From Phycisphaerales bacterium (GTDB taxonomy: Bacteria; Planctomycetota; Phycisphaerae; WQYP01): a stretch of 64,000 nucleotides of DNA. Positions 30,224-59,205 of this stretch are shown in pieces. Both the position numbers and the translations under genes were made by a program. The notes beneath the pieces were generated by a model, which saw only the letters and a program-made list of their open reading frames with translations, was not told the origin of the DNA and searched no databases. The DNA lies in contig DAIDJN010000059.1 of assembly GCA_027451365.1 (NCBI GenBank), positions 32,001 through 96,000 of the forward strand. The letters run 5' to 3'. Each line of letters starts with the position of its first letter. Position 1 is the stretch's first letter.

Positions 30224-30253
30224 CGGGTCCTTTGGAATGCGGTTGCGCCGAAT

Positions 30254-31693
30254 TTATTTGCGGCTGGACAACAACGGAACGATCTGATCTACACGGGCCT
30301 GCCAGGTGTGGCTGGCCGCGGTGGCCTGGCGATGGGCGGCTTTGCTGGTGCCTTCGGCCAGGGCGGCCTGCAACTGCGCCAGGAATTCTTCAGGGGTTCG
30401 GGCAATGCGTACCAGATCGGGAAAGTCGCGAAAGCCGGCCACATCGGTGGAAACAATCGGCTTGCCTGCCGCCAGATATTCCCACAGTTTGATGGGATTA
30501 AGACTTTCCACAAATTCGGTCATGCAGTGCGGTGTCATGCAGACATCAAACGCGCGCATAAATTGCGGCAGATCATGATAAGGACGCGGTCCGGGCAGCG
30601 CCACCCGGCCGGTGGCCAGAAGCCGTTGCGAATCGGCGGTGCTTAACATATTTGGACCCAGCAGCACCAGTGTGCCGGGCAAATTTCGGGCGATAAGCAG
30701 GCGGGCAATGGCCGCAACCATGTCAACATCCACGCGGTCGGCATGAATGGAACCGGTGTAGCCATACACCGGCCGTGGCCAGGCGGCCGGGTCGGCATCC
30801 GGCGGCAGGGGACCGGTGCCTTTGAGCACGGCGGCGTAATGGGCGGCATCCACACCATTGGGAATTAAATGAAGGCGGCGGGCAAGTTCTTTTTTTGAAT
30901 CGTATAATGCCTGGGAACATACAATCACATCATCGGCCAATTGGCACAGGCGGGCGTCCTGCGCAATGGTTAACCGCCGCAGGGCGGGGCGGTCGGTAAA
31001 ATGACTGAATTTGGTCCAGTCATCTGTAATGTCATAAATAACTTTAGATTCCCCCATGCGGCCAACAAGATGCACCGCGTCGTGGGCGTTGATCCAGAGC
31101 AACGCCGAGTCGCTGCCTTCCAATGCGACAGCCGTCTGCGGCGGCTTTAATGCGTCGCCCGGCTGCGCCCCGCTAACTGAGGCAACAGGCGCATCACCTT
31201 TATTTACTGCTTCCGGCAAAGCGGTTTCATTCATGCGCAGCCGCCTGATAGATGCGGTGGCACGGCGAATTTGAAGGCGAATCAGCCATTCGTTAAAAAC
31301 ACGGGCGACCGAGAGTGAATTGGGCAGAAATTTAAGCGGGCGGAAAATGGTGATGTTGGGCAGGCCATCCGGGTGCCACGGTTTGCCGCCACGCAGGCTG
31401 GCAAAATTGCGGGTGCGGATGGCGTTGGAAACGTCGCGTGGGGGCGCAACGAAAAGAATGTGCATGTCAGGAAAGCGGCGGGCGAGTTCGGCGCAGATAA
31501 ACTGATTCCTTCGCCAGATGTCATCCCAATTTTCGAGCGAAAGAAAAAGCAAAAAAACTCCGCCTGTTGTTTTTAACGAAAGGAATTTCAGCGTCCGGTC
31601 CATGAAGGCCGACAGTGCGGCGGAACGGCCGCTTCGTTTCAGCGGCGGGGGCGAGCGGTTCGTTTTCGCCATGCCCGCGACCGCCTTAAGCAA
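30254..31693 (-). CDS. GT-B glycosyltransferase (GT4-like) with a short in-frame repeat insertion
   Basis: YDITDDW, NGVD, NPIKLWEYLAAGKPIV; start uncertain. Confidence 0.85.
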   Translation of the reverse strand: MLKAVAGMAKTNRSPPPLKRSGRSAALSAFMDRTLKFLSLKTTGGVFLLFLSLENWDDIWRRNQFICAELARRFPDMHILFVAPPRDVSNAIRTRNFASLRGGKPWHPDGLPNITIFRPLKFLPNSLSVARVFNEWLIRLQIRRATASIRRLRMNETALPEAVNKGDAPVASVSGAQPGDALKPPQTAVALEGSDSALLWINAHDAVHLVGRMGESKVIYDITDDWTKFSHFTDRPALRRLTIAQDARLCQLADDVIVCSQALYDSKKELARRLHLIPNGVDAAHYAAVLKGTGPLPPDADPAAWPRPVYGYTGSIHADRVDVDMVAAIARLLIARNLPGTLVLLGPNMLSTADSQRLLATGRVALPGPRPYHDLPQFMRAFDVCMTPHCMTEFVESLNPIKLWEYLAAGKPIVSTDVAGFRDFPDLVRIARTPEEFLAQLQAALAEGTSKAAHRQATAASHTWQARVDQIVPLLSSRK

Positions 31694-31736
31694 ACCGCTT
31701 CATTTGAATCCGGTGGGGGGGTGATTCTTATATTCT

Positions 31737-32699
31737 TTATTTATTGACGGGGGTGTTCCCATGAGTTTTGCACAGCAACGATCGCGATTGCTGAAGCGCG
31801 ATATATTTGTACAGGCTGATTTTTCCGGCGGCCTGTTGGCGGCGTGCGGATTTTGCCACGCGAATCAGTGTCCAGAATAAAATGCGGGCAATGGCCCCGC
31901 AAATGTTGGCAATCCGGAAACTGAAAAGACCCGCCCAGCCGTGGTGCTTGCGAATAAAGTAATTGTGGCTTTCCAGTGCCATGCGGCTTATTTTGGGTTT
32001 AGAGTTGGCGCTGCTGGCCCCACCCAAATGGGTGACAACCGCCCGGTGCGTAAAGGCAATTTTCCAGCCGGCGTTGGCGATTCTTTTCTGCCAATCGGTT
32101 TCTTCGGCATACATGAACATGGCTTCGTCAAAGCCGCCAACCTGGGTATAGACTTTTCGCCGCACCAGCATGCAGGCGCCGATAACCCATGGGCAAAGCC
32201 AATCCGAATCGTGCGGCCAGTGCCGCAGGTCATCCCAGCCACAGCGAACGGGGGCGATGGCGGTAATCCACAGGCTTTCCAGCCAGGCCCGCCCCGGTGA
32301 TGGGAAGTAATAAACGGACTGCTGAAGTTTTCCGGGCGCATATTCCAGCCGCGGGCCAACAAGGCCAACCGCCGGCTGGGCTTCCAGGATGGACATCATG
32401 GCTTTCAGCGCACCGGGTGAAAGGAACGCGTCGCTGTTAAGAAGCAGGAAAAAATCGGCGGAGGGATGGGCGGCGGCCATGGCAATATTGTTCGCCGCGC
32501 CAAATCCGGCGTTGGTCGGATTACGAATCAGCTTTACCTGCGGAAACTGCTGTTCAATAGCCTGGGGTGAACCGTCGGCCGAGGCGTTGTCCACCACGAT
32601 AACTTCCAGTTCGAAACCGTCGGCGCACGCAAAGACGGATTCTAGGCAACGGAGCGTCAGGTCGCGGGTGTTAAAAGATATAATTAATATGGATATCAT
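31737..32699 (-). CDS. GT2 glycosyltransferase
   Basis: VVDNASADGS, NAGFGAANN, LLNSD, YAEETD. Confidence 0.92.
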   Translation of the reverse strand: MISILIISFNTRDLTLRCLESVFACADGFELEVIVVDNASADGSPQAIEQQFPQVKLIRNPTNAGFGAANNIAMAAAHPSADFFLLLNSDAFLSPGALKAMMSILEAQPAVGLVGPRLEYAPGKLQQSVYYFPSPGRAWLESLWITAIAPVRCGWDDLRHWPHDSDWLCPWVIGACMLVRRKVYTQVGGFDEAMFMYAEETDWQKRIANAGWKIAFTHRAVVTHLGGASSANSKPKISRMALESHNYFIRKHHGWAGLFSFRIANICGAIARILFWTLIRVAKSARRQQAAGKISLYKYIALQQSRSLLCKTHGNTPVNK

Positions 32700-32750
32700 G
32701 ATGTGCGCTGCGATTCATAAAGCAAACAGGGGGCGAAGAGCATGTGACGG

Positions 32751-33295
32751 ATAATCCACAGATTTTCACAGATTCACACAGATTTAAATAAACAGCTAGA
32801 GAATCAGGGATAAAAAAAGTTGGCGGATGATTATCCACAGATTCGCACAGATTGACACAGATTTAAATAAACCGCGAGAGGATTAGGGATACGAATTTGG
32901 CGAACGATTATCCACAGATCTACACAGGGCTTTAGCCTGTAAAATATTAATTATGGTCGCCCTTAATCTGTGCAAATCTGTGTTCATCTGTGGATCAAAC
33001 CGTCTCTTCGTGGTAAATCCGTTCTCGTCGTTAATCTGTGAAAATCTGTGTCAATCTGTGGATGGCATCGTCTTTTTTTTTGTGTTAAATTTAGTCGTCG
33101 TTAATCTGTGTCCATCTGTGGATCAAACCGTCTCTTTGTGGTGAATCGTCCTCTTCTAACTTCTGACTTCTAACTTCTAAATCCTTCGCCGCGTCCTTCG
33201 TGTCTTCGTGCCTTCGTGGTAAATCAGTCGTCGTCGTTAATCTGTGCAAATCTGTGTAAATCTGTGGATGACGTCGTCTTTCTTCGTGGTGAATC
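32751..33295. repeat. Composite inverted-repeat element of 10-nt (ACACAGATTN), 8-nt and 7-nt units
   Basis: Forward ATCCACAGAT..ACACAGAT blocks at 32751-32930 and reverse ATCTGTG..ATCTGTGGAT blocks at 32964-33271; homologous to 51351-51757. Confidence 0.9.
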
Positions 33296-33310
33296 GCTCT
33301 TTTTCAGATT

Positions 33311-35221
33311 TTAGATGCCAGGTTCTTTATGCTTCCGTGTCGCCACGGCGGCATATATGGCCGCGACTTGTGCGGCCATTCTGCTGGCGGTGAAGTGCTC
33401 TTCAAACCGCTGGCGGCCCGCCGCACCCATGGCGCGGGCTTTTTCAGGATTGTTCAAGAGGTCCGCAATTGCGGCGGCCAAACTTTGGGGATTGCCCGGC
33501 TCAAACAGCAAGCCAGTTTGGCCGTGAACCACTATTTCGCACGGGCCGCCGGCGTTGGCGGCGATAACCGGTTTGCCCATGGCCATTGCCTCCAGCAGCA
33601 CCAGACCGAAAGGCTCGGCGGGCGCGGGCAGTACAAAAATATCGCAAGCAGACATAAGGGCCGGAATGTCGCGACGGAAGCCTAAAAGCCGCACGGGCGG
33701 CTTTTTAATGGGCAAAGAGCAATGATCAATTGTCAAATGTTTTTGAAGCGCTTCGCTTCCGTTTTCTTCTAGATGCAAGGTGCTGGGTGCTAGATTCTTT
33801 TCCGGCTGACTTTTGGTTAATCTGTGCGAATCTGTGTCAATCTGTGGATTATTCGCCGTATTCTCTGTGTCTAAGCCAATTTCTGTTTTTTGCCCTCTGG
33901 CTTTTTTCTCGTTCGCCGTCGTCAATCTGTGTTCATCTGTGTCAATCTGTGGATTATTCGTCGCATTCTCTGTGGCTAAACCATCTTCTGTTTTTTGCCC
34001 CTTGGCTTTTTTCTCGTTCGCCCCCGTTAATCTGTGCAAATCTGTGTTAATCTGTGGATTATTCGCCGTATTCTCTGTGTCTAAGCCAATTTCTGTTTTT
34101 TGCCCTCTGGCTTTTTTCTCGTTCGCCGTCGTCAATCTGTGATCATCTGTGTTAATCTGTGGATTATTCGTCGCATTCTCTGTGGCTAAATCGTCTTCTG
34201 CTTTCTTCATTCCCGCGAACAGTAATTCGATGAGTTTTTCGATTTCGGGCCGTTGGTCGCCTTCACCGGCGATAAGCAACGCGGGCAACGCCACAGCGTC
34301 GCAACCAACCGTTTGGCGTCGCGAGGAGCTAAAAAAGCTTTGAAGCGCGGCGCTTGCCGGCTTTTCTTTTGTCTCATCCGTCGCCCTCGTCGATCTGTGT
34401 TCATCTGTGTAAATCTGTGGATTATTCGTCGCATTCTCTGCGGCCAAGCCGGCATCTGTTTTCTGACTTCTGGCTTCTGTCTTCTTCTGCTGCTGCTGCA
34501 GCAGCGCAAACGCTTTGATCAGCGTGGGAATATCTTTTTCTTTTTGCAGGCGGGCCGCGCAAAAAACGTTGCGGCGTTTTTCATTGACCAATAATCGCTG
34601 ATCACTGGTCAATGAAAAGTCAGAAGGCAGAAGACTGGATGCAGAAGAATGCGGACGCGTTTGGCTTCCGTTTTCTTCTGTTTTCTTCACAACGGGATCC
34701 GCATCGCGAATTCCGTTATGCACGACGGTTATTTTATCTTGGGGCGCATCGTGCCGGGTCAGCATCGCGTCGCGCACGGCCTGCGAAATGGCGATAAACG
34801 CGGCGGTGTTATGTTCCGCCCAGCGGTGCAAACGTGTGGCCAGCCAGGCCTTCGGGCCGCGGCGGCCGGTGCGGTTGGGGGCAAGGAAATGCTGCGTGGC
34901 CACAACGCTGCCGCGGCCGGCGCGTTTCATGGCGGCCACGGCCAGCAGATGGGTGCGGCCGTTGTGTGCGTGAATAATGTCCACCCGACCGGCGCGAAGT
35001 TCAGCGGCCAGCGTTGTGATGGTTGTCAGTCCGGGAAATTTTTCGGCGGCTATGTGGGTCACCGGAATGCGCGCGTCTGTGGCACGCGACCACAAGGCAG
35101 ATTGGCGGGGGCACGCGATGGTAACGGAAACGCCCTCGGCAAGCAGAGCGGCGGAAAGGTCGAAAACGTGCGATTCAGTGCCGGCGAACGGAAGGGTGTC
35201 CAGGAATTCTATCACGTGCAT
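33311..35221 (-). CDS. GT4 glycosyltransferase with three in-frame repeat-derived insertions
   Basis: GT4 core (AGTE, HAHNGR, ARLQKEKD, EPFGLVLLEAMA) interrupted by repeat-encoded loops; frame stays open. Confidence 0.85.
   Translation of the reverse strand: MHVIEFLDTLPFAGTESHVFDLSAALLAEGVSVTIACPRQSALWSRATDARIPVTHIAAEKFPGLTTITTLAAELRAGRVDIIHAHNGRTHLLAVAAMKRAGRGSVVATQHFLAPNRTGRRGPKAWLATRLHRWAEHNTAAFIAISQAVRDAMLTRHDAPQDKITVVHNGIRDADPVVKKTEENGSQTRPHSSASSLLPSDFSLTSDQRLLVNEKRRNVFCAARLQKEKDIPTLIKAFALLQQQQKKTEARSQKTDAGLAAENATNNPQIYTDEHRSTRATDETKEKPASAALQSFFSSSRRQTVGCDAVALPALLIAGEGDQRPEIEKLIELLFAGMKKAEDDLATENATNNPQINTDDHRLTTANEKKARGQKTEIGLDTENTANNPQINTDLHRLTGANEKKAKGQKTEDGLATENATNNPQIDTDEHRLTTANEKKARGQKTEIGLDTENTANNPQIDTDSHRLTKSQPEKNLAPSTLHLEENGSEALQKHLTIDHCSLPIKKPPVRLLGFRRDIPALMSACDIFVLPAPAEPFGLVLLEAMAMGKPVIAANAGGPCEIVVHGQTGLLFEPGNPQSLAAAIADLLNNPEKARAMGAAGRQRFEEHFTASRMAAQVAAIYAAVATRKHKEPGI
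33818..34205. repeat. 105-bp tandem repeat (about 3.7 units, ABAB) inside the GT4 gene
   Basis: TCTGTGGATT at 33841, 33946, 34051 and 34156 (105-bp spacing); a further copy at 34414. Confidence 0.92.
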
Positions 35222-35231
35222 TTCAGGTATC

Positions 35232-35396
35232 CACAGACACGGGGTTTCACAAGAGGGAACGGAGATTTAAAAATATTATGACGATGAACGGGGATTCACA
35301 GGAGGTAACAGAGGATAAGCGAGGATTAAATAAATAATTATGACAAGGACGACGAACGGGAATTCACAGGAGGCAACAGAGGGAAAAAGAGGATTA
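35232..35396. repeat. 9-nt-period repeat blocks (TTCACAGGAGGTAACAGAGG type) downstream of the GxxExxY gene
   Basis: Three degenerate blocks, inverted relative to 35905-35930 and 36033-36058. Confidence 0.75.
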
Positions 35397-35476
35397 GGCA
35401 CCACGGTATTACTACCGATTTACGGGCGGGAACGGAGGATGGCCGAGGCCTGAATATTATTACGACGGGTGAGGCG

Positions 35477-35893
35477 TCACAAAGGGGAAACGGTGGGGCG
35501 ACTACCGGGGCGGTGGAAGCGGGATATGCCATCGCGCAGGTGTACCACATTGAAGTTAATTAATAATCCAACGGCTTTGCCACTGAGCTTCAGGTACGAG
35601 ATGATTTGCGCCTTGTGGATTGGCAGGAGCGCGTCAACTGCTTTCAGTTCCACGACAACCAGCTCCTCAACCAGCACGTCAATGCGATAGCCAACATCCA
35701 GCGTGGTGCCGTCGTACACCACAGGAAGTTCCACCTGGCTCCGCACTGAATGGCCGCTCGTTCGCAGTTCGTGGACCAGGCACGCTTCGTAAGCGCTTTC
35801 CAGAAGTCCCGGCCCCAAGGTGCTGTGTATCCGCATGGCGGCACCTATTATTTGTTCAGTCAGTTCCTTGTGCGCGGCCTCATTTTCGTTCAT
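35477..35893 (-). CDS. GxxExxY protein (PD-(D/E)XK nuclease superfamily)
   Basis: IIGAAMRIHSTLGPGLLESAYEACL (GxxExxY), RIDVLVEELVVVELKAV, AQIISYLK, GLLINF; GGAGG RBS before ATG 35893. Confidence 0.92.
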   Translation of the reverse strand: MNENEAAHKELTEQIIGAAMRIHSTLGPGLLESAYEACLVHELRTSGHSVRSQVELPVVYDGTTLDVGYRIDVLVEELVVVELKAVDALLPIHKAQIISYLKLSGKAVGLLINFNVVHLRDGISRFHRPGSRPTVSPL

Positions 35894-36103
35894 CGGTCCT
35901 CCGGTCCCCTCTGTTACCTCTGTGTGAATCAATTCCCGGTGTTTTCGTTTCTTTGTGGTCCTAGTGCACTTGTTGGCGGAGTCTATCTCGACGAATCGGG
36001 ATGGTGAACTCGGTCGTTCATCGGTCCTCCGGTCCCCTCTGTTACCTCTGTGTGAATCAATTCCCGGTGTTTTCGTTTCTTTGTGGTCTTGGTGCACTTG
36101 TTG
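35886..36103. repeat. 90-bp direct repeat (35886-35975 and 36014-36103)
   Basis: The two copies differ at two positions and are separated by a palindromic spacer. Confidence 0.92.
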
Positions 36104-37433
36104 TCTTAGTGTTGAATTTGATCGCCGGTGCTCGCTGGCGGGTGACTTCAAAATGCACCGCCGCCAACATGCCGACAGCGCACCAAGCCCATTCTATGCT
36201 GCCGCGCAGCCAATATTCGTCCACCATGCCGTGCGCAAAGCGGCCAAAGATAAGCGCGGCTCCCAAGGCCACCAGTGTAAAGCGTGGGTCGGCCGGCGAA
36301 AGCTTTTTGTGCGTATTCCAGGCGGTTAAAAGGGCCACGGCATATATTGCCAGAAATGCGGCAAGCCCCTGCACGCCGGTTTCGGCAAGGGTAATCAGAA
36401 ATACATTGGTTGGGTCCACTTGCTTGCGCAGCCCAACGCCCACGCCCAGCACCGGATGGTTTTCAAATTCATTAATCGCGTGGTGAATCAGTTGGATTCG
36501 CGGCTGGATGCTTCCCTTATTTGGATTAAAATCAAACGCATAATGCTGCTGCTTGTGCGGCAAAAACAAATAAAGCAAAACCAATAACGGCAACATGACC
36601 GCAGCCATGCGGGCCATTAAAATAAAGCGCCGGCGCAGCAGCAGAATTACCATGCATCCGGTGATGGCTTCCAGCCAGCCGCCGCGTGACAAGCTCATGA
36701 ATAGCGCCGCGCCGATAAGCAGCAAGGCCAAGCCCAGCCAACGGATCGCCCGTTTGCGGCCGACAATTTTGGCACCCAGCCACAACTCAAATGTAATGGC
36801 GAAGCCAGCACCAAAGGAAGATCCCCATGCGGCGTTTTTGTTGTTACCTGGTGGGTAGTGAAAATGGGTAGCCAGCACCAGAATCGCAAGAATCGCTAGT
36901 GCACCGACTGCCCCTTCCAAGGCAAAATGCAGGTCATCCGTTCCGCCAGGAAATGAAGCGCAGAGCATCGGGGCAATTATGATGAATACGAACATTTCCA
37001 CGAAGGCCTTAATGGCCTCCAGATGCCAATGCGGATAAAGGGCGCTGGAAACCAAGCAAAGGAAAAGATAAATAACGCTAGGCCACAGCGTGGGGCCAAT
37101 GCGCAATGGCTTTCCCATTTGGGCAGATTTCACCAGCACAATGGGCAGCAGAATTGCCATACACAATTCTGAAATTGAAAGGCGCAAGGGGATATGCAGT
37201 GGCACGGCTTGCAGCAGAGGAACTGTTGCAAAAGTAAGCAATAAACCAATTCGCGGCTGACTTGCGCTAAGGGCAATAAAAATGACAATAAAGCCCGCGC
37301 CGGCCACCAGCGGTGAAAAATGGGCCAAGACCGCGAGTACAACCGCTACGGGCAGCCCCCAGATAGCAACCTGGCCAAGGGATGTCCCCTTGGCCGGTGT
37401 CCGGCGTAAAATGTTATTGGGCATGGCTGTCAA
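36057..37433 (-). CDS. O-antigen ligase/Wzy polymerase family protein
   Basis: About 12 TM helices, SLSRGGW, HPVLGVGVG, NVFLITLAETGVQG. Confidence 0.82.
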   Translation of the reverse strand: MTAMPNNILRRTPAKGTSLGQVAIWGLPVAVVLAVLAHFSPLVAGAGFIVIFIALSASQPRIGLLLTFATVPLLQAVPLHIPLRLSISELCMAILLPIVLVKSAQMGKPLRIGPTLWPSVIYLFLCLVSSALYPHWHLEAIKAFVEMFVFIIIAPMLCASFPGGTDDLHFALEGAVGALAILAILVLATHFHYPPGNNKNAAWGSSFGAGFAITFELWLGAKIVGRKRAIRWLGLALLLIGAALFMSLSRGGWLEAITGCMVILLLRRRFILMARMAAVMLPLLVLLYLFLPHKQQHYAFDFNPNKGSIQPRIQLIHHAINEFENHPVLGVGVGLRKQVDPTNVFLITLAETGVQGLAAFLAIYAVALLTAWNTHKKLSPADPRFTLVALGAALIFGRFAHGMVDEYWLRGSIEWAWCAVGMLAAVHFEVTRQRAPAIKFNTKTTSAPRPQRNENTGN

Positions 37434-43357: not shown

Positions 43358-43474
43358 TAAGTCTTGCCTATTGCCAATTGTTCTTTGTTGGGTGCCAGGT
43401 ATTTTCTGGGGGGGCGTCGCATGCTTAGTCGGCGTCCTGGGTGGCGAATATTTTGGGGTCTTTGCTCTCGGCTT

Positions 43475-45780: not shown

Positions 45781-45822
45781 CGCTTCAGTATCCTTGAGTT
45801 AGTTATACCGCCAGGCACCGGT

Positions 45823-46866
45823 CTATCCGCCTCGCGAGGCCGGGCTGGTCGAAGGGGCGAGTGGGGGCAGCCGTGCCGGCGCGGAATCTCCGGGACGAGT
45901 TCCGCTAAGTGGACTGCTCCAGTCGCGGCGGACGAGGCCGTGGTGTTCGTAATTTGGCTCGCGGCGCAGCTCGCGCAATAGACATCGGCGGGCGTGGAAC
46001 TTTTCCAAGGGTTCGAGTTCCCAGGCGGGCATCGTTGGGGCTGTGATCCAGCCCGGGAGATGCCGCAGCCGTTCCCAACCCAGTTTGCACGCGGCGCGGT
46101 AAAACGCCAGGCGAGGCCACCGGCGACGCTGGTGTTCCCAATGGTGTTCGACGTAGGCCGCGAATTCCCCGCGTTTATACGCCTGGCGTGCGAATGATTG
46201 CCGCGAAAGCCGCCCGGGTTCCAGGTGGTGTTCAACCTCTATGTCCAGGTGGGTGACGATGCGAAAGCCGGCCTGGCGAACCTGCAGCCAGAATAAGGTG
46301 TCCTCCGCGTGTCCCAGTGCGCCTGGGCCTACTTCGGGATCGAAGCCGGGCACGGCGGTTAAGACGCGGCGGCTAACCGCCATGTTCGCGCCGATGAGCG
46401 GCATATTGGTGTTTTTCGGCAAGTCCTCGGTGCTGGCGAGCCAGCCGCGCTGTGCGGCGGTCAGCCAGGGCCTGCGTAATGATGAGGCTAATCTGATGCC
46501 ACCGGCGACGGCATCGGCGCTTCCATCCAGAATCGGCCGGGTTAATTTTTCAATCCAATCTGCGGGGACGTGCACATCGTCGTCCGTAAACATAAGGACG
46601 TCGCCGGTCGCGGTCGAAAGGCCCTTGTTGAGGGCTACGGATTTTCCGGGGGTGCCCACGAATAAATGACGAAGCGTCAGCCTGCCGCACGAGTTGCCGA
46701 ATGCCTTGAGCACGTCGGCGGTCTGGTCACGCGATCCGTTGTCAATAACGATCAGTTCGGCCGACATCCCGGCGGGGATTTCGATATCCGCCAGCGCTTC
46801 CAATGTTGCCTGGAGATGCGTGGCGCGGTCCCGTGTGCAGATTAAGATTGATATTGTATGAGACAA
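45823..46866 (-). CDS. GT2 glycosyltransferase
   Basis: ICTRDR, IDNGSRD, FTDDD, GANM, AED. Confidence 0.9.
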   Translation of the reverse strand: MSHTISILICTRDRATHLQATLEALADIEIPAGMSAELIVIDNGSRDQTADVLKAFGNSCGRLTLRHLFVGTPGKSVALNKGLSTATGDVLMFTDDDVHVPADWIEKLTRPILDGSADAVAGGIRLASSLRRPWLTAAQRGWLASTEDLPKNTNMPLIGANMAVSRRVLTAVPGFDPEVGPGALGHAEDTLFWLQVRQAGFRIVTHLDIEVEHHLEPGRLSRQSFARQAYKRGEFAAYVEHHWEHQRRRWPRLAFYRAACKLGWERLRHLPGWITAPTMPAWELEPLEKFHARRCLLRELRREPNYEHHGLVRRDWSSPLSGTRPGDSAPARLPPLAPSTSPASRGG

Positions 46867-46919
46867 TTAACGGCAACCTCTATCGTTTCGCAAGTTTCAG
46901 GCCTCCTGGCTTGCCAAGT

Positions 46920-47711
46920 TCAGGCGTTGTTCCATTTGGCTTCTTCCCGCAGGTGGATTCCCAACGGGCCGTCGCAAAGCTGTGACTCGTCGGCGTAGAT
47001 CGCCGTGAGGCGGGTTCGCGCGACGAGGATGTAGCCCCGTTGCCGGAGGAAAGACGATATCTCTGAACTTCCCGGCTCGGAGAGCGATTTAAGGCCAATT
47101 TCCTCGGCCAATACAAAAGTGGGGTGGAATTGTTCCCAGTCGTTCGATTGCAGTGCCTCAAGGTCCATGCCTTCCACATCCACGGAGAGAAAATCAATCC
47201 GTTGCGATTCAGGCAGGTGTTCCTTTAGGATTATTGCGAGCGGCATGGCCGGTATTTCGCGCTTTCCAATGATTCGATGCTTACCAGAAAAATCCCGGCT
47301 CTCACAGAGTTCGCGGTCGAAGCCGTTGAGCAGCGGCTCGTCGAAGCAATGGTAGGTGAGCGATCCGGGGCTGCGAGCAATCGCCATTTCAAGGTTAATG
47401 TCGCGCGGTCGTTCGGGGTCGAAAAGAGCCTTCATTCCCGGGCGCGGATCGATGTTTATTCCGTGCCATCCGCGCTGGTAGAAATAGCAGGTGTTTGAAA
47501 ATCGCCATGGGTCGTGTGCGCCGACGTCGACGTAAAAGCCAGCGCGGCGATGAAGCACGGACCCGAGGAGCGCCCCTAAAATAAGATCTTCCCCTTCTTG
47601 CGCGTAGCTGAGCGCCGCATGCGGGCTGATATAGGCCTCACGCAGCGAGCGTTTCATCCAACCTGGGACGAAACTTTTTGCGGCTCGCACAAGGGGCGAA
47701 CTTCTCAACAT
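46920..47711 (-). CDS. FkbM family methyltransferase
   Basis: SYAQEGED, YVDVGAHDP, SNT, FLSVDVEGMD; ATG 47711 chosen as start. Confidence 0.88.
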   Translation of the reverse strand: MLRSSPLVRAAKSFVPGWMKRSLREAYISPHAALSYAQEGEDLILGALLGSVLHRRAGFYVDVGAHDPWRFSNTCYFYQRGWHGINIDPRPGMKALFDPERPRDINLEMAIARSPGSLTYHCFDEPLLNGFDRELCESRDFSGKHRIIGKREIPAMPLAIILKEHLPESQRIDFLSVDVEGMDLEALQSNDWEQFHPTFVLAEEIGLKSLSEPGSSEISSFLRQRGYILVARTRLTAIYADESQLCDGPLGIHLREEAKWNNA

Positions 47712-47721
47712 TTGGAAACTC

Positions 47722-48987
47722 CTAGATTGCTGAACCGGTGTTGGGTTGTGTCTGACTCCACTGGGCCTCCAAAAGCAGAGGTGCGTCGCCCTCGAATCCG
47801 CGTGAGCCAGTTCCGTAGAAATCTCCGGCCTCGACATCGAGCTGCGCGACAGGGTCCCTCGGGAAGTCCGCCTCGGTGCCGGCAACGACGATTCGCGCAT
47901 GCACGGCGTATCGACCGGCTGCCAACGGCAAACGCCCGACGGAGCACCGGAACTCGCTGACACCGGCGCCGGCCGTAAACGTGCGCGACTGGTACGATCC
48001 GTAAAAGACCGAGAGCAGTTGCCCGGTGTAGGAGGTAAAGGACATGCCGATGTCGACCTTGGGCACCGGACGCGAATCTGGATTTTCGCAGTTGAAGACG
48101 AATTGGAGGGCCATGCCGGAAAGGGCGGAGCGGATTGTCTTGCCGTGATCGTTCTCGAGCCGGAATTCAGTGATTCGCAAGGCCCCCGTTCCGCTGCGGG
48201 CGACGTCCTTTCTGATAGTTATGCGGTCGGCGGCTTGTGGATTGGCGGCCCGCAGGTAGGAGTCGATTGCGGTCCTGACTGGGCCCGAGCCTGCGACGTT
48301 GCCTCGCTCCAGAAAAATAGCCTTGTTGCAGAGACCGGCCACCGAGGCCATGTTGTGGCTGACAAACAATACGGTCCGGCCACTTTTGCTTACATCCTGC
48401 ATTTTGCCAAGGCATTTGTTCTGGAATTCGCTATCGCCCACGGACAGAACTTCATCCACAATTAAAATTTCGGAACTTAAATGGGCGGCTACCGCAAAGG
48501 CCAATCGCACATACATGCCGCTGGAATAACGCTTTACCGGAGTGTCCAGAAATTTTTCCACGCCCGCGAAATCCACTATGGCGTCGAACTGTTTTCGTAT
48601 TTCAGACTTTCGCATGCCCAGAATGGCGCCGTTAAGGAAAATATTTTCCCGGCCGGTAAGTTCCGGGTGAAAGCCCGTGCCTACCTCCAGCAGACTGCCG
48701 ACGCGGCCGAAAAGGTCGATCTGGCCACGGGTTGGTTCGGTGATGCGGCTTAAGATTTTAAGGAGTGTGCTTTTGCCCGCCCCGTTGCGGCCAATAACGC
48801 CCACGACATCGCCTTCCTGAACGTCAAAGGAGATATCGTTTAACGCCCAGAAGGTTTCGCGGGTGGGGCGGCGGAATGGGTTTTTAAGGCGCGCCAACGC
48901 GGCCTCGGCCAGGGTGACGTGGTCGGGGGCGTTGTGGCGAATGGTGTAGGATTTGGCTAAACCTTGGACGCTGATGGCGATAGACAT
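47722..48987 (-). CDS. wzt: Polysaccharide ABC exporter ATPase with Wzt C-terminal domain
   Basis: GRNGAGKST, YSSGMYVRLAFA, VDEVL; C-terminal extension. Confidence 0.93.
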   Translation of the reverse strand: MSIAISVQGLAKSYTIRHNAPDHVTLAEAALARLKNPFRRPTRETFWALNDISFDVQEGDVVGVIGRNGAGKSTLLKILSRITEPTRGQIDLFGRVGSLLEVGTGFHPELTGRENIFLNGAILGMRKSEIRKQFDAIVDFAGVEKFLDTPVKRYSSGMYVRLAFAVAAHLSSEILIVDEVLSVGDSEFQNKCLGKMQDVSKSGRTVLFVSHNMASVAGLCNKAIFLERGNVAGSGPVRTAIDSYLRAANPQAADRITIRKDVARSGTGALRITEFRLENDHGKTIRSALSGMALQFVFNCENPDSRPVPKVDIGMSFTSYTGQLLSVFYGSYQSRTFTAGAGVSEFRCSVGRLPLAAGRYAVHARIVVAGTEADFPRDPVAQLDVEAGDFYGTGSRGFEGDAPLLLEAQWSQTQPNTGSAI

Positions 48988-48997
48988 AGTGGGGGTC

Positions 48998-49196
48998 CAG
49001 AAAACAGAAGACAGAAAACAGAAGACAGAAGGCAGAAGACAGGAGGCAGAAGACGGAAGACGGAAAACAGAAGGCAGAAGACAGAAAACAGAAGGCAGAA
49101 GGCAGAAGACAGAAGACAGAAGACAGAAAACAGAAGACAGAAGGCAGAAGACAGAAGACGGAAGACAGAAGGCAGAAAACAGAAGACGGAAGACAG
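48998..49196 (+). repeat. Heptamer tandem array C(A/G)G(A/G)A(G/A)(A/G), 28 units
   Basis: Uninterrupted 7-nt phase of CAGAAGA/CAGAAGG/CAGAAAA/CGGAAGA/CAGGAGG. Confidence 0.95.
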
Positions 49197-49233
49197 TTTG
49201 AGGCGCCGGGCTTGTGTTTTGGTTCCTGATTTC

Positions 49234-49611
49234 TTATTCACCTATTTTTGATACATTCGCAAGGATGGCGGCACGGTAGCTGTGCAACAATCGGGCAACT
49301 TCCTGACAGTTTTGCCATAGGGCTTCTTTATTCAGATGGCCCAGGTCGTGGGAAAGGATTAAATAATAGCGACATTCTTCAAGTGATCCTTCTGCGGTAT
49401 TAAGGAATTTGGCCTTGTCGGGTCTGGTTTGCTTGCCGAAGCCTTCAGCAATATTGGCGGAAATTGACACCGCGGCACGGCGAAATTGTGATACAAGGCC
49501 GTAGAGTTCATCCTTGGGGAATTTTCTGGTGGCAATATATACTTGAAGCGTGAACGCGTGTGCTTTTTGCCAGACAATTAGATCTTGAAAGGAAGAAGCG
49601 GGCGGCGGCAT
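49234..49611 (-). CDS. Four-helix-bundle protein (23S rRNA intervening-sequence protein family, Avd-like)
   Basis: FQDLIVWQKA, FPKDELYGLVSQFRRAAVSISANIAEG, FLNTAEGSLEE; AGAAAGG RBS before ATG 49611. Confidence 0.93.
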   Translation of the reverse strand: MPPPASSFQDLIVWQKAHAFTLQVYIATRKFPKDELYGLVSQFRRAAVSISANIAEGFGKQTRPDKAKFLNTAEGSLEECRYYLILSHDLGHLNKEALWQNCQEVARLLHSYRAAILANVSKIGE

Positions 49612-49626
49612 GGGGGACCTTTCTAA

Positions 49627-49717
49627 AAGAAGACAGAAGGCAGAAGACAGAAAACAGAAGGCAGAAGACAGGAGGCAGAAGACAGGAGGCAGAAGACGGA
49701 AGACAGAAGGCAGAAGA
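49627..49717 (+). repeat. Heptamer tandem array, about 13 units
   Basis: Same units and orientation as 48998-49196. Confidence 0.93.
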
Positions 49718-49748
49718 GTTTTGAAGCGCTTCGCTTCCGTTTTCTTCT

Positions 49749-50124
49749 CTTTTCTGGCTTCTTCGTCGCCGGGTTCTTCGTGTCTTCGTGGTGAACTCGG
49801 TCGTATCGTTGCGTCGTCGTGCCGTTGTGGTGAAATCCGTCGCCTTCTGCCTTCTGTCTTCTGTCTTCTGTTTTCTGGCTTCTTCGTCGCCGGGTTCTTC
49901 GTGCCTTGGTGCCTTCGTGGTGAATCGTCATCTTCTGTTTTCTGTTTTCTGACTTCTGCCTTCTGTTTTCTCTTTTCTGGCTTCTTCGTCACCGGGTTCT
50001 TCGTGACTTCGCGTCGGAGTTTATCCCGACGCATCGGGATGGTGAATCGTCGTCTTCTGTTTTCTGTTTTCTAGCTTCTGTTTTCTGACTTCTGCCTTCT
50101 GTTTTCTCTTTTCTGGCTTCTTCG
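49749..50124 (-). repeat. Inverted heptamer blocks interspersed with 8-nt CACGAAG(G/A) modules
   Basis: TTCTG/CTTCTG blocks on the + strand; TTTTCTGGCTTCTTCGT recurs four times (about 49750, 49871, 49973, 50110). Confidence 0.88.
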
Positions 50125-51066
50125 TTAAATAACGTCCGCGAAACGGCGTTCCATTTTCTTAAACAGCATCAGCCCGCTGGCGAACAGGATAATGGCGCAC
50201 GCGGCGCTCCAGACGGTGGGGCCGACCAGAAGATGCCCACGGCCCAACAGCGACCAGCGAATGGCGGACAACATGCCCGTAAGGGGGTTGGCACAGTACC
50301 AGGGATAAACCCAAAGTTTGTGGTCTTTAAGGAGCTTGGCGTGAACCGAGGCCAGCGAATAGCCAACCGGGCTGGCATACATAAGCATCTGCATGAATAC
50401 CGGCAGAATGTATTGAATATCGCGATAGCTGACGGCCAACGCGCTGGTGACCATGCCGATGCCCAGCGCGGCCATAAGCATAATTGCGATCCAGATCGGG
50501 AGCAGCAGAATGCCGACGCCGGGGTTCACACGGTAAATCAGCAGCAGGATAAGCAATACGGAAAAGGCACAGCAGAAGTCCACAATAACGGAAAGACTGC
50601 TGGCGACCGGAAGAATAACCCGTGGGAAAAAGACCTTGGAAACCAGGTTGGAATTTGCGACCATGCAGGTGCTGGACCGGCTGATGGTGTTGGCGAACAG
50701 GTTCCAGCCCAGCAGGCCGGCGAAGGAAAGGACGAAGTAGGGGGTTCCGGAGCTTTTCATGTGGCCCAGAACGCCGAACACGAACGTGAAAATTAACGCG
50801 CCCAGCAGGGGCTGCAACACGACCCAGGCGACGCCAAGAATCGTTTGCTTGTAGCGGAGTTTCAGGTCGCGGCCGGCGAGGGAAAAAAGCAGGTCGCGGA
50901 ATTCCCAGACTTCAATAAGGTCTACAAATTTCCAGGGCTTGCTGGGCCGAATGGTAAGGTGCGCGCGGCGCGCGGGCGCAGCGGGGGAAGGCGCCGCGAC
51001 CACGGCGACTGCCGATGGCGACGATTGGGCGGGATCGTTGGTAAGTGAATTCGGAAGTTCAGTCAT
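50125..51066 (-). CDS. wzm: Polysaccharide ABC exporter permease
   Basis: RDLKLRYKQTILGVAWVVLQP, KVFFPR, RDIQY, NPL, ERRFADVI. Confidence 0.93.
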   Translation of the reverse strand: MTELPNSLTNDPAQSSPSAVAVVAAPSPAAPARRAHLTIRPSKPWKFVDLIEVWEFRDLLFSLAGRDLKLRYKQTILGVAWVVLQPLLGALIFTFVFGVLGHMKSSGTPYFVLSFAGLLGWNLFANTISRSSTCMVANSNLVSKVFFPRVILPVASSLSVIVDFCCAFSVLLILLLIYRVNPGVGILLLPIWIAIMLMAALGIGMVTSALAVSYRDIQYILPVFMQMLMYASPVGYSLASVHAKLLKDHKLWVYPWYCANPLTGMLSAIRWSLLGRGHLLVGPTVWSAACAIILFASGLMLFKKMERRFADVI

Positions 51067-51090
51067 GGTTATCCAAAGAGGTTAGGGTGA

Positions 51091-51757
51091 TAGAAGGCAG
51101 AAGACGGAAAACAGAAGACAGAAGGCAGAAGACAGAAAACAGAAGGCGGAAGACAGAAGGCAGAAGGCGACGATTTTTACCACGAAGGCACGAAGACACG
51201 AAGAACGAGACAGAAGATAACGATTTAGCCACAGAGGGCACGGAGAATCCACAGATTAACACAGATTTACACAGATTAACGGCAACGACGGATTTACCAC
51301 GAAGGTACGAATGGCACCAAGGCCAAAGAGGGCACAGAGAATTACACGAATAATCCACAGATTGACACAGATTTACACAGATTTACACAGATTTAATTAA
51401 CCAGCCAGACAATCAGGGATACGAATTTGGCGAACGATTATCCACAGATTAACACAGATGAACACAGAGACGACGAACGCAGGGGGTATTGACCAATAAG
51501 ACCACCAAGGAAACTAAGGACACAGAGAACAACACATTTAATCCACAGATTTACACAGATTGACACAGAGACGACAACGAGGCGATTAGCCACAGATTCT
51601 CACGGGGCTATAGCCTGTAAAATATTAATTATGGTCGTGGTTAATCTATGAAAATCTGTGTAAATCTGTGGACAGCATCGTCTTTCTTTGCGCTAAATTT
51701 AGTCGTCGTTAATCTGTGAAAATCTGTGTCCATCTGTGGATCAAACCGTCTCTTTGT
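51091..51757. repeat. Composite repeat region: 7-nt array (11 units, 51091-51167), then 8-, 9- and 10-nt blocks and an inverted 10-nt arm
   Basis: Directly visible; 51351-51757 is homologous to 32751-33140. Confidence 0.9.
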
Positions 51758-51799
51758 TGTCCTCGCGAAACGGCTTTCCATTAGATTTCCCTGGCGAGG

Positions 51800-54700
51800 C
51801 TAAGCGGATTCGTTGCTTGCCGCAGCGGGTCCCGGAATCGGGATGGCCGCGGTGGGCGGAATCTGCTTTTCAGAAGCTGCCTGGGCCAGGCGTGTGGTAT
51901 CCACGGTGGCGATGCGGCTTTGGCCGAATTCCCGCCAGCGGACTTCCACAAATTCCCGCAGCTTTTCGCGAAACACCGGGCGGCTGAACCGCATGGCGTT
52001 GGCGCGAATGGCGTGCGGGTCCCATTTTAAGCGTTCAAACCGATCTACCGCTTCGTTTAAGCTTTCCGCGGTATGTTCCATAAAGAACATTCCCGTGGCA
52101 CCATCCACAACCGTTTCCGTGGCCCCGCCATGGCCGAAGGCGATAACGGGCGTGCCGCAGGCCTGGGCCTCCACCGGCACAATGCCGAAGTCTTCTTCGG
52201 CGGCGAAAATGAAGGCCCTGGCGTGCTGCATGTAATGGCGGAGTTCGGCTTCGGGCAATCGGCCGACCAATTTCACATTCGGACCGGCCAGAGCTTGAAT
52301 TTTGTTGAATTCCGGGCCTTCGCCAACCACCACCAGGCGGCGGTTGGGCCTGCGGGAAAACGCTTCCACAATCAGGTCCATGCGTTTGTAGGGCACCATG
52401 CGGGACGCGGTTAAATAATAATCCGCTTTCTGGCTGTCCAGCGAAAATGTATCTGTATCCACGGGCGGATATAGCGTGGTGGCCGATCGACCATATACCT
52501 TGTTAATGCGGCGGCCGACAAAATCGGAATTGGCTATAAACGCATCCACGCCATGGCTGGTGCGGACATCCCATAGTCGCAGGTAATGAAGAATGGCCCG
52601 CGCGGCCAGGCTTTTTATTCCCGCCGTTAAGGAGGCTTCCTTAAGGTACTGGTGCTGCAGGTCCCAGGCGAAACGCACCGGGCTGTGGCAGTAGCAGATG
52701 TGAAGCTGGTCGGGCCGTGTCAGAATTCCTTTGGCCACCAGATACGAACTGGATAACACAATGTCGTATTGCGATACGTTAATTTGTTCAATCGCCATGG
52801 GCATCAGCGGCAGATAGGCGCGGTGTTTGCGGCGGGCCAGCGGCATTTTCTGCAGAAAGCTGGTGGTGACGGGTTTGTTCTTTATGAACGCCCGGTTTTC
52901 CGGTGGAAGGAAATCAAACAGGCTGAAAAGGTCCGCACTGGGGAAAACCTCCAGCATCTGTTCCAGCACCCTTTCGGCTCCGCCACAGGTGTACAGGAAA
53001 TCGTGAACAATGGCGATTTTAAGATCACCGACCGGACGGGTATAGCGGTGGCGCAATGGGTCGATATTTTCCAGTGGCGGCGTAATGCGGCCGGCGATGG
53101 GTGGGGGAATTTCAGCGATCAATCCCGGCGGGGGGGAAAGTGCCGGGACCGGGTCTTCGGCTTTCTGACTTTTTGCATCCATGTTCTTACCGGTGTCCTT
53201 GAATTCTTCTTTATTCCGCGTTCTTTGTTCGCCGAAGTTTATGGCCTTGAAAATGCCCGAGCCGGTATTTTTCTGTCCTTTTCCGGGTGGATTGGGCTTG
53301 CCGGAACCAAAAATACGTATTCGGAACGGACCGGGGTTCTGGTCTGGCAGGCTGGCCAGAGAATTTTCTTCCATCAGCCGCGCAAACAGCGCCAGCCGAT
53401 GCCCGGCGGATTCCAGAAACGTGGTGCTGGGAATGGTGAGTTCAAGTGTCATGTGCGGGCCGATGCGCCGATGGCGAATGGGCAAAGAAGCCTGCAGCAG
53501 CGGGGCACCGGCGAAATCTTCCTCCGGGGCGGTCCAGAAGCGCGGTTCCGTGGTGCCATCTCGCCGGGTAATGGTCATGGCCACCCGGCTGAAGTGCAGC
53601 ATTTGCGCGCCTTGGCATACGCTTTCCCACCAGGCATCAAACGTGCCGGCGCGGCTTAAACGAAGCTGCAGCATTTCAAACGCCTGCCGGTATTGTTTGC
53701 TTTCGCGGGCCAGTTGCCGATTGCGCCGAATGGCGTGAATAAGGTCGAAGAATCGCGTGGACCCGGCGGAACGGAACAGTACCAGCAGCAGAAACGCCAG
53801 AATCAACAGGTACAAGACCCGCAGATTGCGGCCGCAATTCAGGATTAATATCGCCAGCAGGCCGGAGGCTGCGCTGAAAACATACAGGAAATAGACCGCA
53901 TGTTTATGACTCAGGCCAAGGTCAAGCAACCGGTGATGAATATGGCCGCGTTCAGCCGCAAAAAGGGATCGGCGGTGCAGAATGCCGCGGCGTAAAAGAG
54001 TGGCCACGGTATCCAGCAGGGGGACGCAAAGGGCAATGGCGGGCACCAGGACGCCTTCCAGATTTCCGGTTTTGCCGGCCAGAGCCACCGTGCCGGCGGC
54101 AATAACAAAGCCAATAAACAGGCTGCCGCCATCGCCCATGAACACCCGTGCCGGATTAAAATTAAACAGCAGAAACGCGGTAATGGACCCGGCCATGGCC
54201 AGCATAAGAATGGCAATGCTTACTTCACCAAGCGCCGCGGCGGTAATGGCGACAACGAGTGCCGCAACGCCGGAAATACCGCCGGCCAGGCCATCAAGCC
54301 CGTCGGTAAAATTCAGGCTGATGGGCACGGTTATAAGCCAGAACATGGTTACTGGCCACGCAAGCCAGGAAAGGTGCGTCAGCCAGGCGGGCGCGTTCCA
54401 GGCGGCCGGCAGGATCAGATTCGGAATCGGTATCTGCGCGCCGTAGGCGGTAAAAAGCCATGCGATAACCAGCAGCCCAATAAGCTTGAGTTTGGCCGGA
54501 ATATTAATCAGATCATCCACCACGCCCAGCGCCAGCAGCATAAGGGAAGCGGCTATCAGGGCGGCCATGGGAGTGCGAATAAGGTGGCCAACCATTTCGG
54601 AACTGCGATAGACAATCAGCACCGGAATGGCGACGGCCATGGCGGCCAGTGCGATGGCCAGCCCGCCGACGCGGGGAATGGGTCGCTGATGCACTTTGCG

Positions 54701-59156: not shown

Positions 59157-59205
59157 ATGGTTCTCCAGAAAATACCTGCCATGCCAAATGTGTTCGGCAG
59201 TTTGT

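What the first reader, a model, noticed from the sequence alone, without database searches (positions are those of the whole stretch)
31121..53200. Candidate system: short-period repeat families and small passenger genes (GxxExxY nuclease-like, Avd-like four-helix bundle) colonising a polysaccharide operon
Seen: repeats with 7-nt (CAGAAGA), 8-nt (CACGAAGG), 9-nt (ACAGAGGTA), 10-nt (ACACAGATTN) and 27-nt periods occur only inside the EPS locus, and none were seen in 0-31 kb. They are assembled into shared modules, usually as inverted arms around conserved pivot motifs. They occur between genes and in frame inside at least five enzymes. The only two non-polysaccharide genes here each sit inside such repeats. 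Established: GxxExxY proteins (TIGR04256) belong to the PD-(D/E)XK nuclease superfamily. The four-helix-bundle family (TIGR02436/PF05635) is structurally related to the DGR accessory protein Avd and was first found in the loop of an excised 23S rRNA intervening sequence. Neither family has a function known to me. Inference: the repeats and these proteins form one selfish or regulatory system without a transposase that spreads, recombines or processes transcripts in glycan loci and so diversifies the surface polysaccharide.
Basis: partly seen in the sequence, partly recalled or inferred. Interest (0 to 1): 0.88.

Follow-up and report, generated by a model that had tools for sequence, protein, structure and literature searches.

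The report
Selfish hairpin cassettes in sugar operon
Two tiny genes of unknown function sit in many bacteria between mirror-image runs of short repeats; here these cassettes and their gene-less remains have piled up in one surface-sugar operon, even inside enzyme genes that stay readable, which looks like tolerated selfish DNA rather than a device for varying the sugar coat.

Summary
The repeats and both passenger genes are real. They are about 75-fold denser in the operon core than in the rest of the genome, but a pilin cluster is as dense. Across genomes, 76 of 106 GxxExxY and 20 of 28 four-helix-bundle genes lie between inverted repeat arms (controls 1 of 198, 0 of 51). Most sit at stop-start junctions of ordinary operons; only 6 of 138 have a glycan gene nearby. 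Arm words track the nuclease tree. Relatives show one junction gene-filled, or the whole operon repeat-free. In-frame arrays avoid stops (0 of 32 versus 85 of 91). Arms show no G.U bias, arguing against selection for an RNA stem. Best reading: selfish cassettes built like rRNA intervening sequences, their debris collecting in a long operon headed by an UpxY-like gene. The mobility mechanism is inferred, not shown. This scan noted the class before on other DNA (at least 14 notes); ten paper searches found no description outside rRNA.

The parts
51067..51799 (-). Gene-less nested stack at the junction between the MraY-like/GT4 fusion and wzm: two 10-nt 5' arms, pivot B (51613-51634), then 10-, 9-, 8- and 7-nt 3' arms
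   Evidence: folds with z -8.3 (sense) and -6.4 (antisense)
48988..50124 (-). Four-helix-bundle cassette between wzm and wzt: purine-rich 5' arms (7- and 8-nt units, 49740-50121), pivot A (49724-49736), 3' arm 49628-49717, the gene, 3' arm 48998-49196 (28 heptamers)
   Evidence: I3: 89% complementary over 70 nt; z -11.6/-14.1
49234..49611 (-). Four-helix-bundle gene, 125 aa (S23p / 23S_rRNA_IVP family)
   Evidence: PF05635 E 5e-36, TIGR02436; matches PDB 2GSC, five chains; purifying selection
43200..43310 (-). Heptamer-pivot A-heptamer hairpin in frame in the N-terminal extension of acyltransferase 2
   Evidence: (both in-frame stop positions changed)
39376..39709 (-). In-frame insert in the inter-domain linker of GT4 38824-40290: 10-, 8- and 9-nt 5' arms, then the 27-nt palindromic module
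38680..38815 (-). Heptamer-pivot A-heptamer hairpin in frame in the N-terminal extension of acyltransferase 1
   Evidence: (D9)
35222..36110 (-). GxxExxY cassette between wzy and GT4b: duplicated 9-nt 5' arms (35886-35982, 36014-36110), the gene, 3' arms (35280-35328, 35348-35396)
   Evidence: D16, D20; z -3.0/-1.6; weaker than the other stacks
35477..35893 (-). GxxExxY gene, 138 aa, PD-(D/E)XK fold with E32, D72, E82-x-K84 and Q96-xxx-Y100
33700..34690 (-). In-frame inserts in GT4 33311-35221 (636 aa versus 380 aa in a repeat-free orthologue): heptamer hairpins, five 10-nt arms (four at 105-nt spacing), pivot A
   Evidence: strain indels of -120, -168, +3 and -3 nt
32700..33310 (-). Gene-less nested stack at the GT4b-GT2 junction: 10-, 8- and 7-nt 5' arms, pivot B (32935-32956), three 10-nt 3' arms. 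The same junction holds a four-helix-bundle gene in G053
   Evidence: (z -6.4/-7.0)
31106..31181 (-). Decayed 27-nt palindromic module in frame in GT4 30254-31693
   Evidence: (D17, 80% to 39376-39451)
26445..63954 (-). Host operon: exosortase, EpsI-like, Wzc-like, TPR protein, MraY-like/GT4 fusion, wzm/wzt, FkbM, GT2/GT4s, two acyltransferases, wzy. An UpxY-like NusG paralogue lies directly upstream, just beyond the window end (G000:C59:96227-96814)
   Evidence: paralogue: (76.6 bits, under the cut-off of 100)

Best explanation
The locus is a sink for two families of small selfish cassettes that share one design: 5' arm, small gene, inverted 3' arm, placed between the stop codon of one gene and the start codon of the next. 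GxxExxY cassettes have arms of about 3 units of 8-10 nt; four-helix-bundle cassettes have arms of about 5 heptamers. SHOWN: this anatomy in many phyla; arms matched within a cassette; arm word following the protein clade; both proteins under purifying selection; presence and absence at orthologous junctions; gene-less arms stacked inside one another; arms kept open in frame in enzyme loops and prepilin leaders. INFERRED: each protein recognises its own arm words in DNA, as a transposase reads iterated end sites. The nuclease nicks at or near the hairpin/cruciform, and host recombination between similar arms copies, nests and deletes cassettes. The four-helix-bundle pentamer may bind one heptamer per subunit. 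The long operon tolerates the load because an UpxY-like antiterminator heads it and its enzymes have dispensable loops. Polysaccharide change, if any, is a by-product.
For: Inverted arms in 76 of 106 and 20 of 28 loci versus 1 of 198 and 0 of 51 shifted controls; the own arm is strictly the best partner in 38 of 106 and 19 of 28. 5' arm within 40 nt of the upstream stop in 54 of 79 and 14 of 19. Neighbours are mostly housekeeping genes: ruvA, motA, trpD, thiolase, mlaE, nusG. Arm word needs 15 changes on the tree versus a shuffled mean of 25.7, 0 of 200 as low; phyla are mixed on the tree. At one shared thiolase junction both arms change together. pN 0.15-0.19 with saturated pS; dN/dS about 0.12 for the one close pair. 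Catalytic residues invariant in 101 sequences. Filled, gene-less and repeat-free states in the orthologous operon. G.U versus A.C 109:96 and 36:25 against 37:3 in tRNA stems; the antisense strand has the lower z-score in 5 of 7 regions folded. Median arm 2.7 and 4.8 units. In-frame stops 0 of 32 versus 85 of 91 out of frame.
Against: No movement, cleavage or binding was observed. No target-site duplication or exact empty allele was defined. The four-helix bundle has no catalytic activity known to me, so what moves its cassette is open. 30 of 106 GxxExxY and 8 of 28 four-helix-bundle loci fall under the arm threshold, including both window genes on the 150-nt test (scores 29 and 15; the second has direct flanks, score 135). 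The three other four-helix-bundle genes of this genome show only short, degenerate arms by eye (not scored). Some sites are shared by distant taxa (ruvA-ruvB, after trpD, thiolase), which fits long vertical residence and possible host use as much as active spread. The tree has few columns, is the quick search, and kin share labels. G014 has the UpxY-like gene but no arrays, so antitermination is at most permissive. Strict 5'-arm-first polarity along the mRNA could reflect an RNA role, and the sense strand has the lower z-score in 2 of 7 regions, one of them the GxxExxY cassette.
Confidence: 0.6

Rival explanations
1. mRNA intervening sequences. The arms pair in the transcript, RNase III cuts the stem as it does for the 23S rRNA IVS, and the operon mRNA is split or its segments tuned. 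The passenger gene is silenced by the stem.
For: The Coxiella IVS has the same gene family in the loop of a 28-bp stem with GACAGAT/GACAGAA heptamers, and RNase III excises it (PMC4990558, passages). Three stacks fold with z -6 to -12 on the sense strand. RNase III is encoded. Polarity is fixed relative to transcription. The 5' arm holds the likely ribosome-binding site in the predicted fold.
Against: No G.U excess (109:96, p 0.40; 36:25, p 0.20) where tRNA stems give 37:3. The antisense strand has the lower z-score in 5 of 7 regions. 5' arms without a nearby 3' arm are kept inside ORFs. No Rfam match.
Confidence: 0.2
2. Adaptive diversifier of the surface polysaccharide: recombination between arms or array slippage rearranges, switches or re-tunes glycosyltransferases.
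For: 75-fold local enrichment. The orthologous operon is also colonised in another genus of the family, with other words at other junctions. Linker length varies among strains. The second hotspot is also a surface locus. 4 of 14 annotated upstream neighbours of four-helix-bundle genes are glycan-related.
Against: 6 of 138 cassette loci have a glycan-gene homologue nearby. G014 has a repeat-free operon with compact enzymes. Matched genes are co-oriented within each orthologous operon fragment examined, so no inversion is seen. Coding arrays keep the frame, unlike phase-variable repeats.
Confidence: 0.1
3. Protein-independent sequence turnover: slippage builds short arrays and hairpin-mediated template switching mirrors them; the small genes are passive cargo.
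For: Heptamer arrays are common in bacteria (PMC4692102, PMC4679880). Words drift fast among close four-helix-bundle relatives. Absence of G.U bias fits conversion between arms.
Against: The period is family-specific: of periods 7-10 tested, 16 of 19 four-helix-bundle arm pairs have period 7, and 79 of 79 GxxExxY pairs period 8-10. The word tracks the nuclease clade across phyla. The proteins are conserved.
Confidence: 0.1

Closest known systems
ORF-bearing 23S rRNA intervening sequence (Coxiella burnetii IVS, PMC4990558; CPR rRNA insertions, PMC11270868)
   Same: Same PF05635 gene family inside terminal inverted repeats. Tandem heptamers (GACAGAT/GACAGAA) before the start codon are nearly the word of the window's array. 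Patchy, horizontally spread.
   Different: Here the cassettes lie at mRNA gene junctions and inside proteins, not in rRNA. A second, unrelated passenger (GxxExxY) uses the same layout. RNase III excision is untested and there is no G.U bias.
RAYT/REP/REPIN systems (PMC3337134, abstract)
   Same: A small gene associated with inverted repeats, plus many gene-less inverted doublets that form hairpins.
   Different: No Y1 HUH transposase found. Arms are tandem short words rather than single palindromes. Passengers are a PD-(D/E)XK protein or a helical bundle.
GGGAATC heptamer repeats of Xanthomonas (PMC4692102) and TAACTGA repeats of Beggiatoaceae/Bacteroidetes (PMC4679880)
   Same: Heptamer arrays, mostly four units in Xanthomonas, often as inverted pairs, close to stop and start codons between co-oriented genes.
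   Different: Described as G-quadruplex or regulatory sites. The passages read link them to no passenger gene.
Rickettsia palindromic elements (as reviewed in PMC10969869)
   Same: Palindromic selfish DNA inserted in frame in enzymes and apparently tolerated.
   Different: RPEs are ~150-bp families encoding a conserved peptide. Here the inserts are mosaics of short-word arms with recoded stops and a candidate source cassette.
DGR Avd (10.1101/2023.10.23.563531) and Cas4/RecB-type nucleases (PDB 4IC1)
   Same: Avd is a pentameric RNA-binding barrel similar to S23 proteins. GxxExxY has a PD-(D/E)XK fold with a QxxxY motif (motif name recalled); best Foldseek hit Cas4 SSO0001, E 6e-4.
   Different: No reverse transcriptase in the locus; Avd model score 28.6 versus cut-off 80. 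No cysteine among the conserved columns, unlike Cas4 (recalled). Fold matches are tied and generic (Z 6-8).

Membership tests
23S rRNA IVS with S23p ORF | lies within an rRNA gene | tested here: not met
   lies between wzm and wzt; no Rfam match in 30-64 kb
23S rRNA IVS with S23p ORF | PF05635 ORF enclosed by terminal inverted repeats with heptamers | tested here: met
   (I3); 20 of 28 loci
23S rRNA IVS with S23p ORF | excised from RNA by RNase III | not testable with these tools
   no RNA data available; RNase III gene present; no G.U bias
RAYT/REPIN | Y1 (HUH) transposase gene | tested here: not met
   PF01797 not found in the 93% complete genome; passengers are PF13366 and PF05635
RAYT/REPIN | gene-less inverted doublets beside gene-carrying copies | tested here: met
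   junction stacks and pivot-A hairpins
MITE / Rickettsia palindromic element | terminal inverted repeats and in-frame insertion in genes | tested here: met
MITE / Rickettsia palindromic element | target-site duplication and a cognate transposase | not tested
   no close empty allele was available; G001 gave no DNA match to 33.0-52.9 kb
PD-(D/E)XK nuclease superfamily (GxxExxY) | alpha/beta core with E, D, E-x-K residues | tested here: met
   E32, E82, K84 invariant and D72 in at least 90% of 101 sequences; model pLDDT 93.6, matches to 4IC1, BpuSI, Hjc
PD-(D/E)XK nuclease superfamily (GxxExxY) | nuclease activity and substrate | not testable with these tools
   no assay
Diversity-generating retroelement | reverse transcriptase next to avd, with template and variable repeats | tested here: not met
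   the only PF00078 match is on another contig; NF033474 28.6 bits, cut-off 80
Phase-variable SSR contingency locus | unit gain or loss shifts the reading frame | tested here: not met
   the 5 simple coding indels listed for the related strain are multiples of 3 (further joints were not shown); stops are recoded at fixed units. The A9 tract in acyltransferase 2 is a separate, untested case
UpxY antiterminator | NusG paralogue at the head of a polysaccharide operon | tested here: inconclusive
   position met; 76.6 bits is under the NF033644 cut-off of 100

The most novel reading that the evidence does not exclude
A widespread, undescribed class of transposase-free mobile elements in which a 120-140-aa protein reads iterated words at both ends of its own gene, with the unit count matching the oligomer (about five heptamers for the pentameric four-helix bundle). 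The class would be the common source of rRNA intervening sequences, of orphan heptamer repeats in many bacteria, and of new in-frame protein loops, and would offer small natural repeat-reading protein-nucleic acid pairs.
Probability: 0.3. Interest if true: 0.85.

Novelty: new variant of a known kind. Interest (0 to 1): 0.66.

Why it matters
GxxExxY and four-helix-bundle genes are very common (31 and 34 of 41 genomes here), and I found no described function for either. Tying each to its own inverted repeat arms gives a direct substrate to test. It also offers an origin for rRNA intervening sequences and for orphan heptamer repeats. This locus adds three testable points: a filled / gene-less / repeat-free series in one operon; codon-level evidence that the repeats are translated inside glycosyltransferases; and a mismatch spectrum that favours DNA over RNA pairing.

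Tried and rejected
RNA evidence: no RNA holder listed. Homotrimer prediction for GxxExxY: no answer, score 0.28 under the mark of 0.42, no evidence either way. Genome-wide co-location with GT4 genes: the list was cut (480 matches not shown), so I used flank searches instead. Those loci are mostly one best hit per genome and under-sample cassette-rich operons. Empty allele in the same genus: G001 gave no DNA match, and its operon contig ends within the TPR gene. Low cover of 35.1-37.8 kb and the 'opposite strand' joints were not used: they can come from repeats or other organisms. Pivot A as a phylum-wide element: 2 of 151 genomes, equal to the reversed control; it is a local module. Single pivot-A and 27-nt modules fold no better than shuffles as DNA (z -1.9 to 0.05 in 6 of 7). 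RAYT, DGR and Rfam families: not found. The ESM Atlas returned only GxxExxY clusters. The folding run timed out after 7 of 10 regions, before the GT4b insert and the two coding controls. The careful tree did not finish; the quick tree was used, and row L021 was misframed and ignored. No chance control was computed for the distances to stop and start codons. PMC10392669 and the myRT preprint (passages) held nothing on these cassettes. Supplements were not read.
Full report
What is there. The window holds a long minus-strand exopolysaccharide operon from an exosortase gene (63016-63954) down to a double GT4 (26445-28895). A NusG paralogue most like UpxY lies directly upstream, just outside the window. 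It is also within 1.5 kb of the exosortase gene in all 5 relatives tested. Between 31.1 and 51.8 kb the operon carries arrays of period 7, 8, 9 and 10 and a 27-nt palindromic module. It also carries one GxxExxY gene (35477-35893) and one four-helix-bundle gene (49234-49611). Earlier scan notes call the organism a Phycisphaerae planctomycete; I did not check this.

More than chance, and real. Period-7/8/10 arrays number 30 in 22 kb of the core (13.6 per 10 kb) and 73 in the remaining 4.03 Mb (0.18 per 10 kb). A 7-kb pilin cluster on C18 has 11 (15.7 per 10 kb). There the same modules lie in frame in prepilin leader peptides, before the GFxxxE motif. Contigs of a related strain from four DNA runs of one study cover the arrays with substitutions, so they are not an assembly artefact.

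The repeats are the arms of gene cassettes. I fetched 110 GxxExxY loci (30 from the relatives search, including the window's own, and 80 from the named-genome scan) and 30 four-helix-bundle loci. 138 of 140 were mapped; 106 and 28 had enough flank. An inverted match of score 30 or more between the 150 nt upstream and the downstream flank was found in 76 of 106 and 20 of 28, against 1 of 198 and 0 of 51 for the same geometry shifted by 1 kb. The own downstream arm was strictly the best partner in 38 of 106 and 19 of 28. The window's two genes fall under the threshold on this test (29; and 15 inverted, 135 direct). Their partner arms are degenerate or lie further out, as the folds show. Of periods 7-10 tested, all 79 GxxExxY arm pairs have period 8-10, and 16 of 19 four-helix-bundle pairs have period 7. 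Median arm length is 2.7 and 4.8 units. The 5' arm starts within 40 nt of the upstream stop codon in 54 of 79 and 14 of 19, and the 3' arm ends within 40 nt of the next start in 45 of 79 and 7 of 19 (no chance control).

Not glycan-specific. Of 106 upstream neighbours of GxxExxY genes, 78 had a Pfam match: 2 GT4, 3 weak mannosyltransferase hits, the rest ruvA, motA, trpD, thiolase, mlaE and the like. Of 26 neighbours of four-helix-bundle genes, 14 matched and 4 were glycan-related. A search of all flanks with the window's glycan proteins hit 2 of 29, 1 of 29 and 3 of 80 loci; background 1.8-2.5%. A mild enrichment is not excluded.

Arms travel with the protein. On a quick IQ-TREE of 75 GxxExxY proteins, the arm word needs 15 changes against a shuffled mean of 25.7 (0 of 200 as low). 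Six of seven CACAGAT-type arms lie on one branch of support 97, and phyla are interleaved (few columns, kin share labels). The genome's single GxxExxY gene has 9-nt arms, so the window's many 10-nt CACAGAT arms are orphans. Relatives carry genes of about 42-44% identity with such arms in the same operon. At a thiolase junction shared by Acidobacteria both arms change together. Both proteins are under purifying selection. The nuclease keeps E32, D72, E82-x-K84 and Q96-xxx-Y100 and folds as a minimal PD-(D/E)XK domain (pLDDT 93.6). Its best matches are Cas4 SSO0001 (E 6e-4) and, tied at Z 6-8, restriction-type nucleases and Hjc. The helix bundle matches PDB 2GSC, a five-chain entry.

Filled, gene-less and repeat-free states in one operon. 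The GT4b-GT2 junction, a gene-less stack in the window (32700-33310), holds a four-helix-bundle gene in G053. G059 has one before the same GT2 gene, G019 at the next junction, and G003 and G058 have GxxExxY genes elsewhere in the operon. G014 has the operon with no arrays in 43.5 kb and mostly abutting genes (GT4b 380 aa versus 636; GT4a 394 versus 479), although it has 4 GxxExxY and 10 four-helix-bundle matches elsewhere. In the window the junction stacks run 5' arms, pivot, 3' arms along the mRNA, with arms of different families nested.

The inserts are probably translated. Orthologues in another genus of the family have inserts of other lengths and words at some of the same loops. Heptamer words that contain a stop triplet must meet the reading frame once in three units. 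Among 56 coding sequences examined, 11 held 32 such arrays. At in-frame positions 0 of 32 triplets are stops, at out-of-frame positions 85 of 91 are; in 60 arrays outside matched ORFs 208 of 266 are. Twelve different replacement codons occur. Caveats: the ORFs were taken as open, and several arrays are copies of one module. Strain indels in GT4b net -120, -168, +3 and -3 nt, and -6 in wzm, while four of six intergenic ones are single-base (contigs, likeness 90, tables cut).

DNA or RNA? Three junction stacks fold with z -6 to -14 on both strands; the antisense strand has the lower z-score in 5 of 7 regions folded and the sense strand in 2. If the mRNA stem were selected, G.U pairs should exceed A.C mismatches. 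They do not clearly: 109 versus 96 and 36 versus 25, against 37 versus 3 in tRNA stems. This favours iterated protein sites or conversion between arms at the DNA level, but does not exclude incidental RNase III cutting.

How it most likely works (inference, 0.6). A cassette is copied to gene junctions, where it borrows the host promoter and interrupts no gene. Its protein recognises the arm words. The nuclease nicks near the hairpin, and recombination between like arms nests, duplicates and deletes cassettes, leaving gene-less arms. A long operon with an antiterminator of the NusG-paralogue type (PMC7819879, passages) and loop-tolerant enzymes or cleaved leader peptides is a permissive sink. 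How four-helix-bundle cassettes move is unexplained.

Relation to what is known. The Coxiella IVS already shows the S23p gene inside a 28-bp stem with GACAGAT/GACAGAA heptamers and RNase III excision (PMC4990558, passages). Xanthomonas heptamer arrays are mostly four units, often in inverted pairs near stop and start codons (PMC4692102, passages). In-frame palindromes are known from Rickettsia (PMC10969869, passages), and gene-plus-doublet systems from RAYT/REPIN (PMC3337134, abstract). I also saw PMC4679880 (abstract and section 10), PMC11270868, PMC5524665, PMC10392669 and two preprints (passages). Ten searches found no paper describing these cassettes outside rRNA; 'GxxExxY' occurs in 3 library papers (2 listed), and most subscription papers are not covered. 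My reading was noted before I opened the scan's notes. Those notes report the same class at least 14 times on other DNA, and once in a glycosyltransferase operon; they are not independent support.

Verdict. Observation largely right; interpretation half right. New variant of a known kind, interest 0.66.

Noticed in passing
window 42759-42767: Acyltransferase 2 is split into two overlapping ORFs (42572-43357, 41941-42897), with an A9 tract in the overlap: pseudogene, phase variation or assembly slip.
   Followed up: no
G000:C59:96227-96814 (L172:1728-2315), just beyond the window end: UpxY-like NusG paralogue at the head of the operon, also present near the exosortase gene in five relatives.
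   Followed up: partly
G000:C18:3000-16000 (L173): Pilin/pseudopilin cluster with the same 7/8/9-nt modules in frame in long prepilin leaders (45 to about 100 aa or more, starts inferred) and no passenger gene found there.
   Followed up: partly
G000:C19:74500-75900, C83:31400-32400; same 9-nt doublet also on C1, C6, C34, C56, C63, C67, C68, C84: A dispersed, often tandem unit of about 330 nt holding 9-nt TCCACAGAT arrays and a REP-like GC palindrome.
   Followed up: no
G000:C77:27100-27900 and C63:1-450: Two closely similar four-helix-bundle genes of another subfamily; the C77 copy is preceded by ~200-nt duplicated units with short purine-rich arms.
   Followed up: no
G000:C37:18900-20400, C53:5400-5750, C63:8 kb: 27-nt modules made of small three-base-loop hairpins between TCTCATTAA spacers, mixed with heptamer arrays; no associated gene identified.
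   Followed up: partly
window 51800-54820: MraY/WecA-like transferase fused to a GT4 (1006 aa) through a low-complexity linker; the GT4 is a separate 397-aa ORF in G014.
   Followed up: partly
L004, L011, L017 (after ruvA); L085, L105, L110 (after trpD); L025, L121 (after motA); seven thiolase loci: The same junction is occupied by GxxExxY cassettes in distant taxa: long residence or site preference.
   Followed up: partly
L161:11837-12547 (G003): A four-helix-bundle gene flanked by inverted 9-nt arrays rather than heptamers, next to a GxxExxY cassette.
   Followed up: no
window 42-11604: Respiratory operon with cytochrome oxidase subunit II and Qrc/Dsr-like hits, resembling alternative complex III (name recalled); xerC at 12626-13747.
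   Followed up: no
G000:C41:140000-141100: Nested 14-nt repeat array with REP-like palindromes (probably the array noted by the scan as e1-1360407).
   Followed up: no
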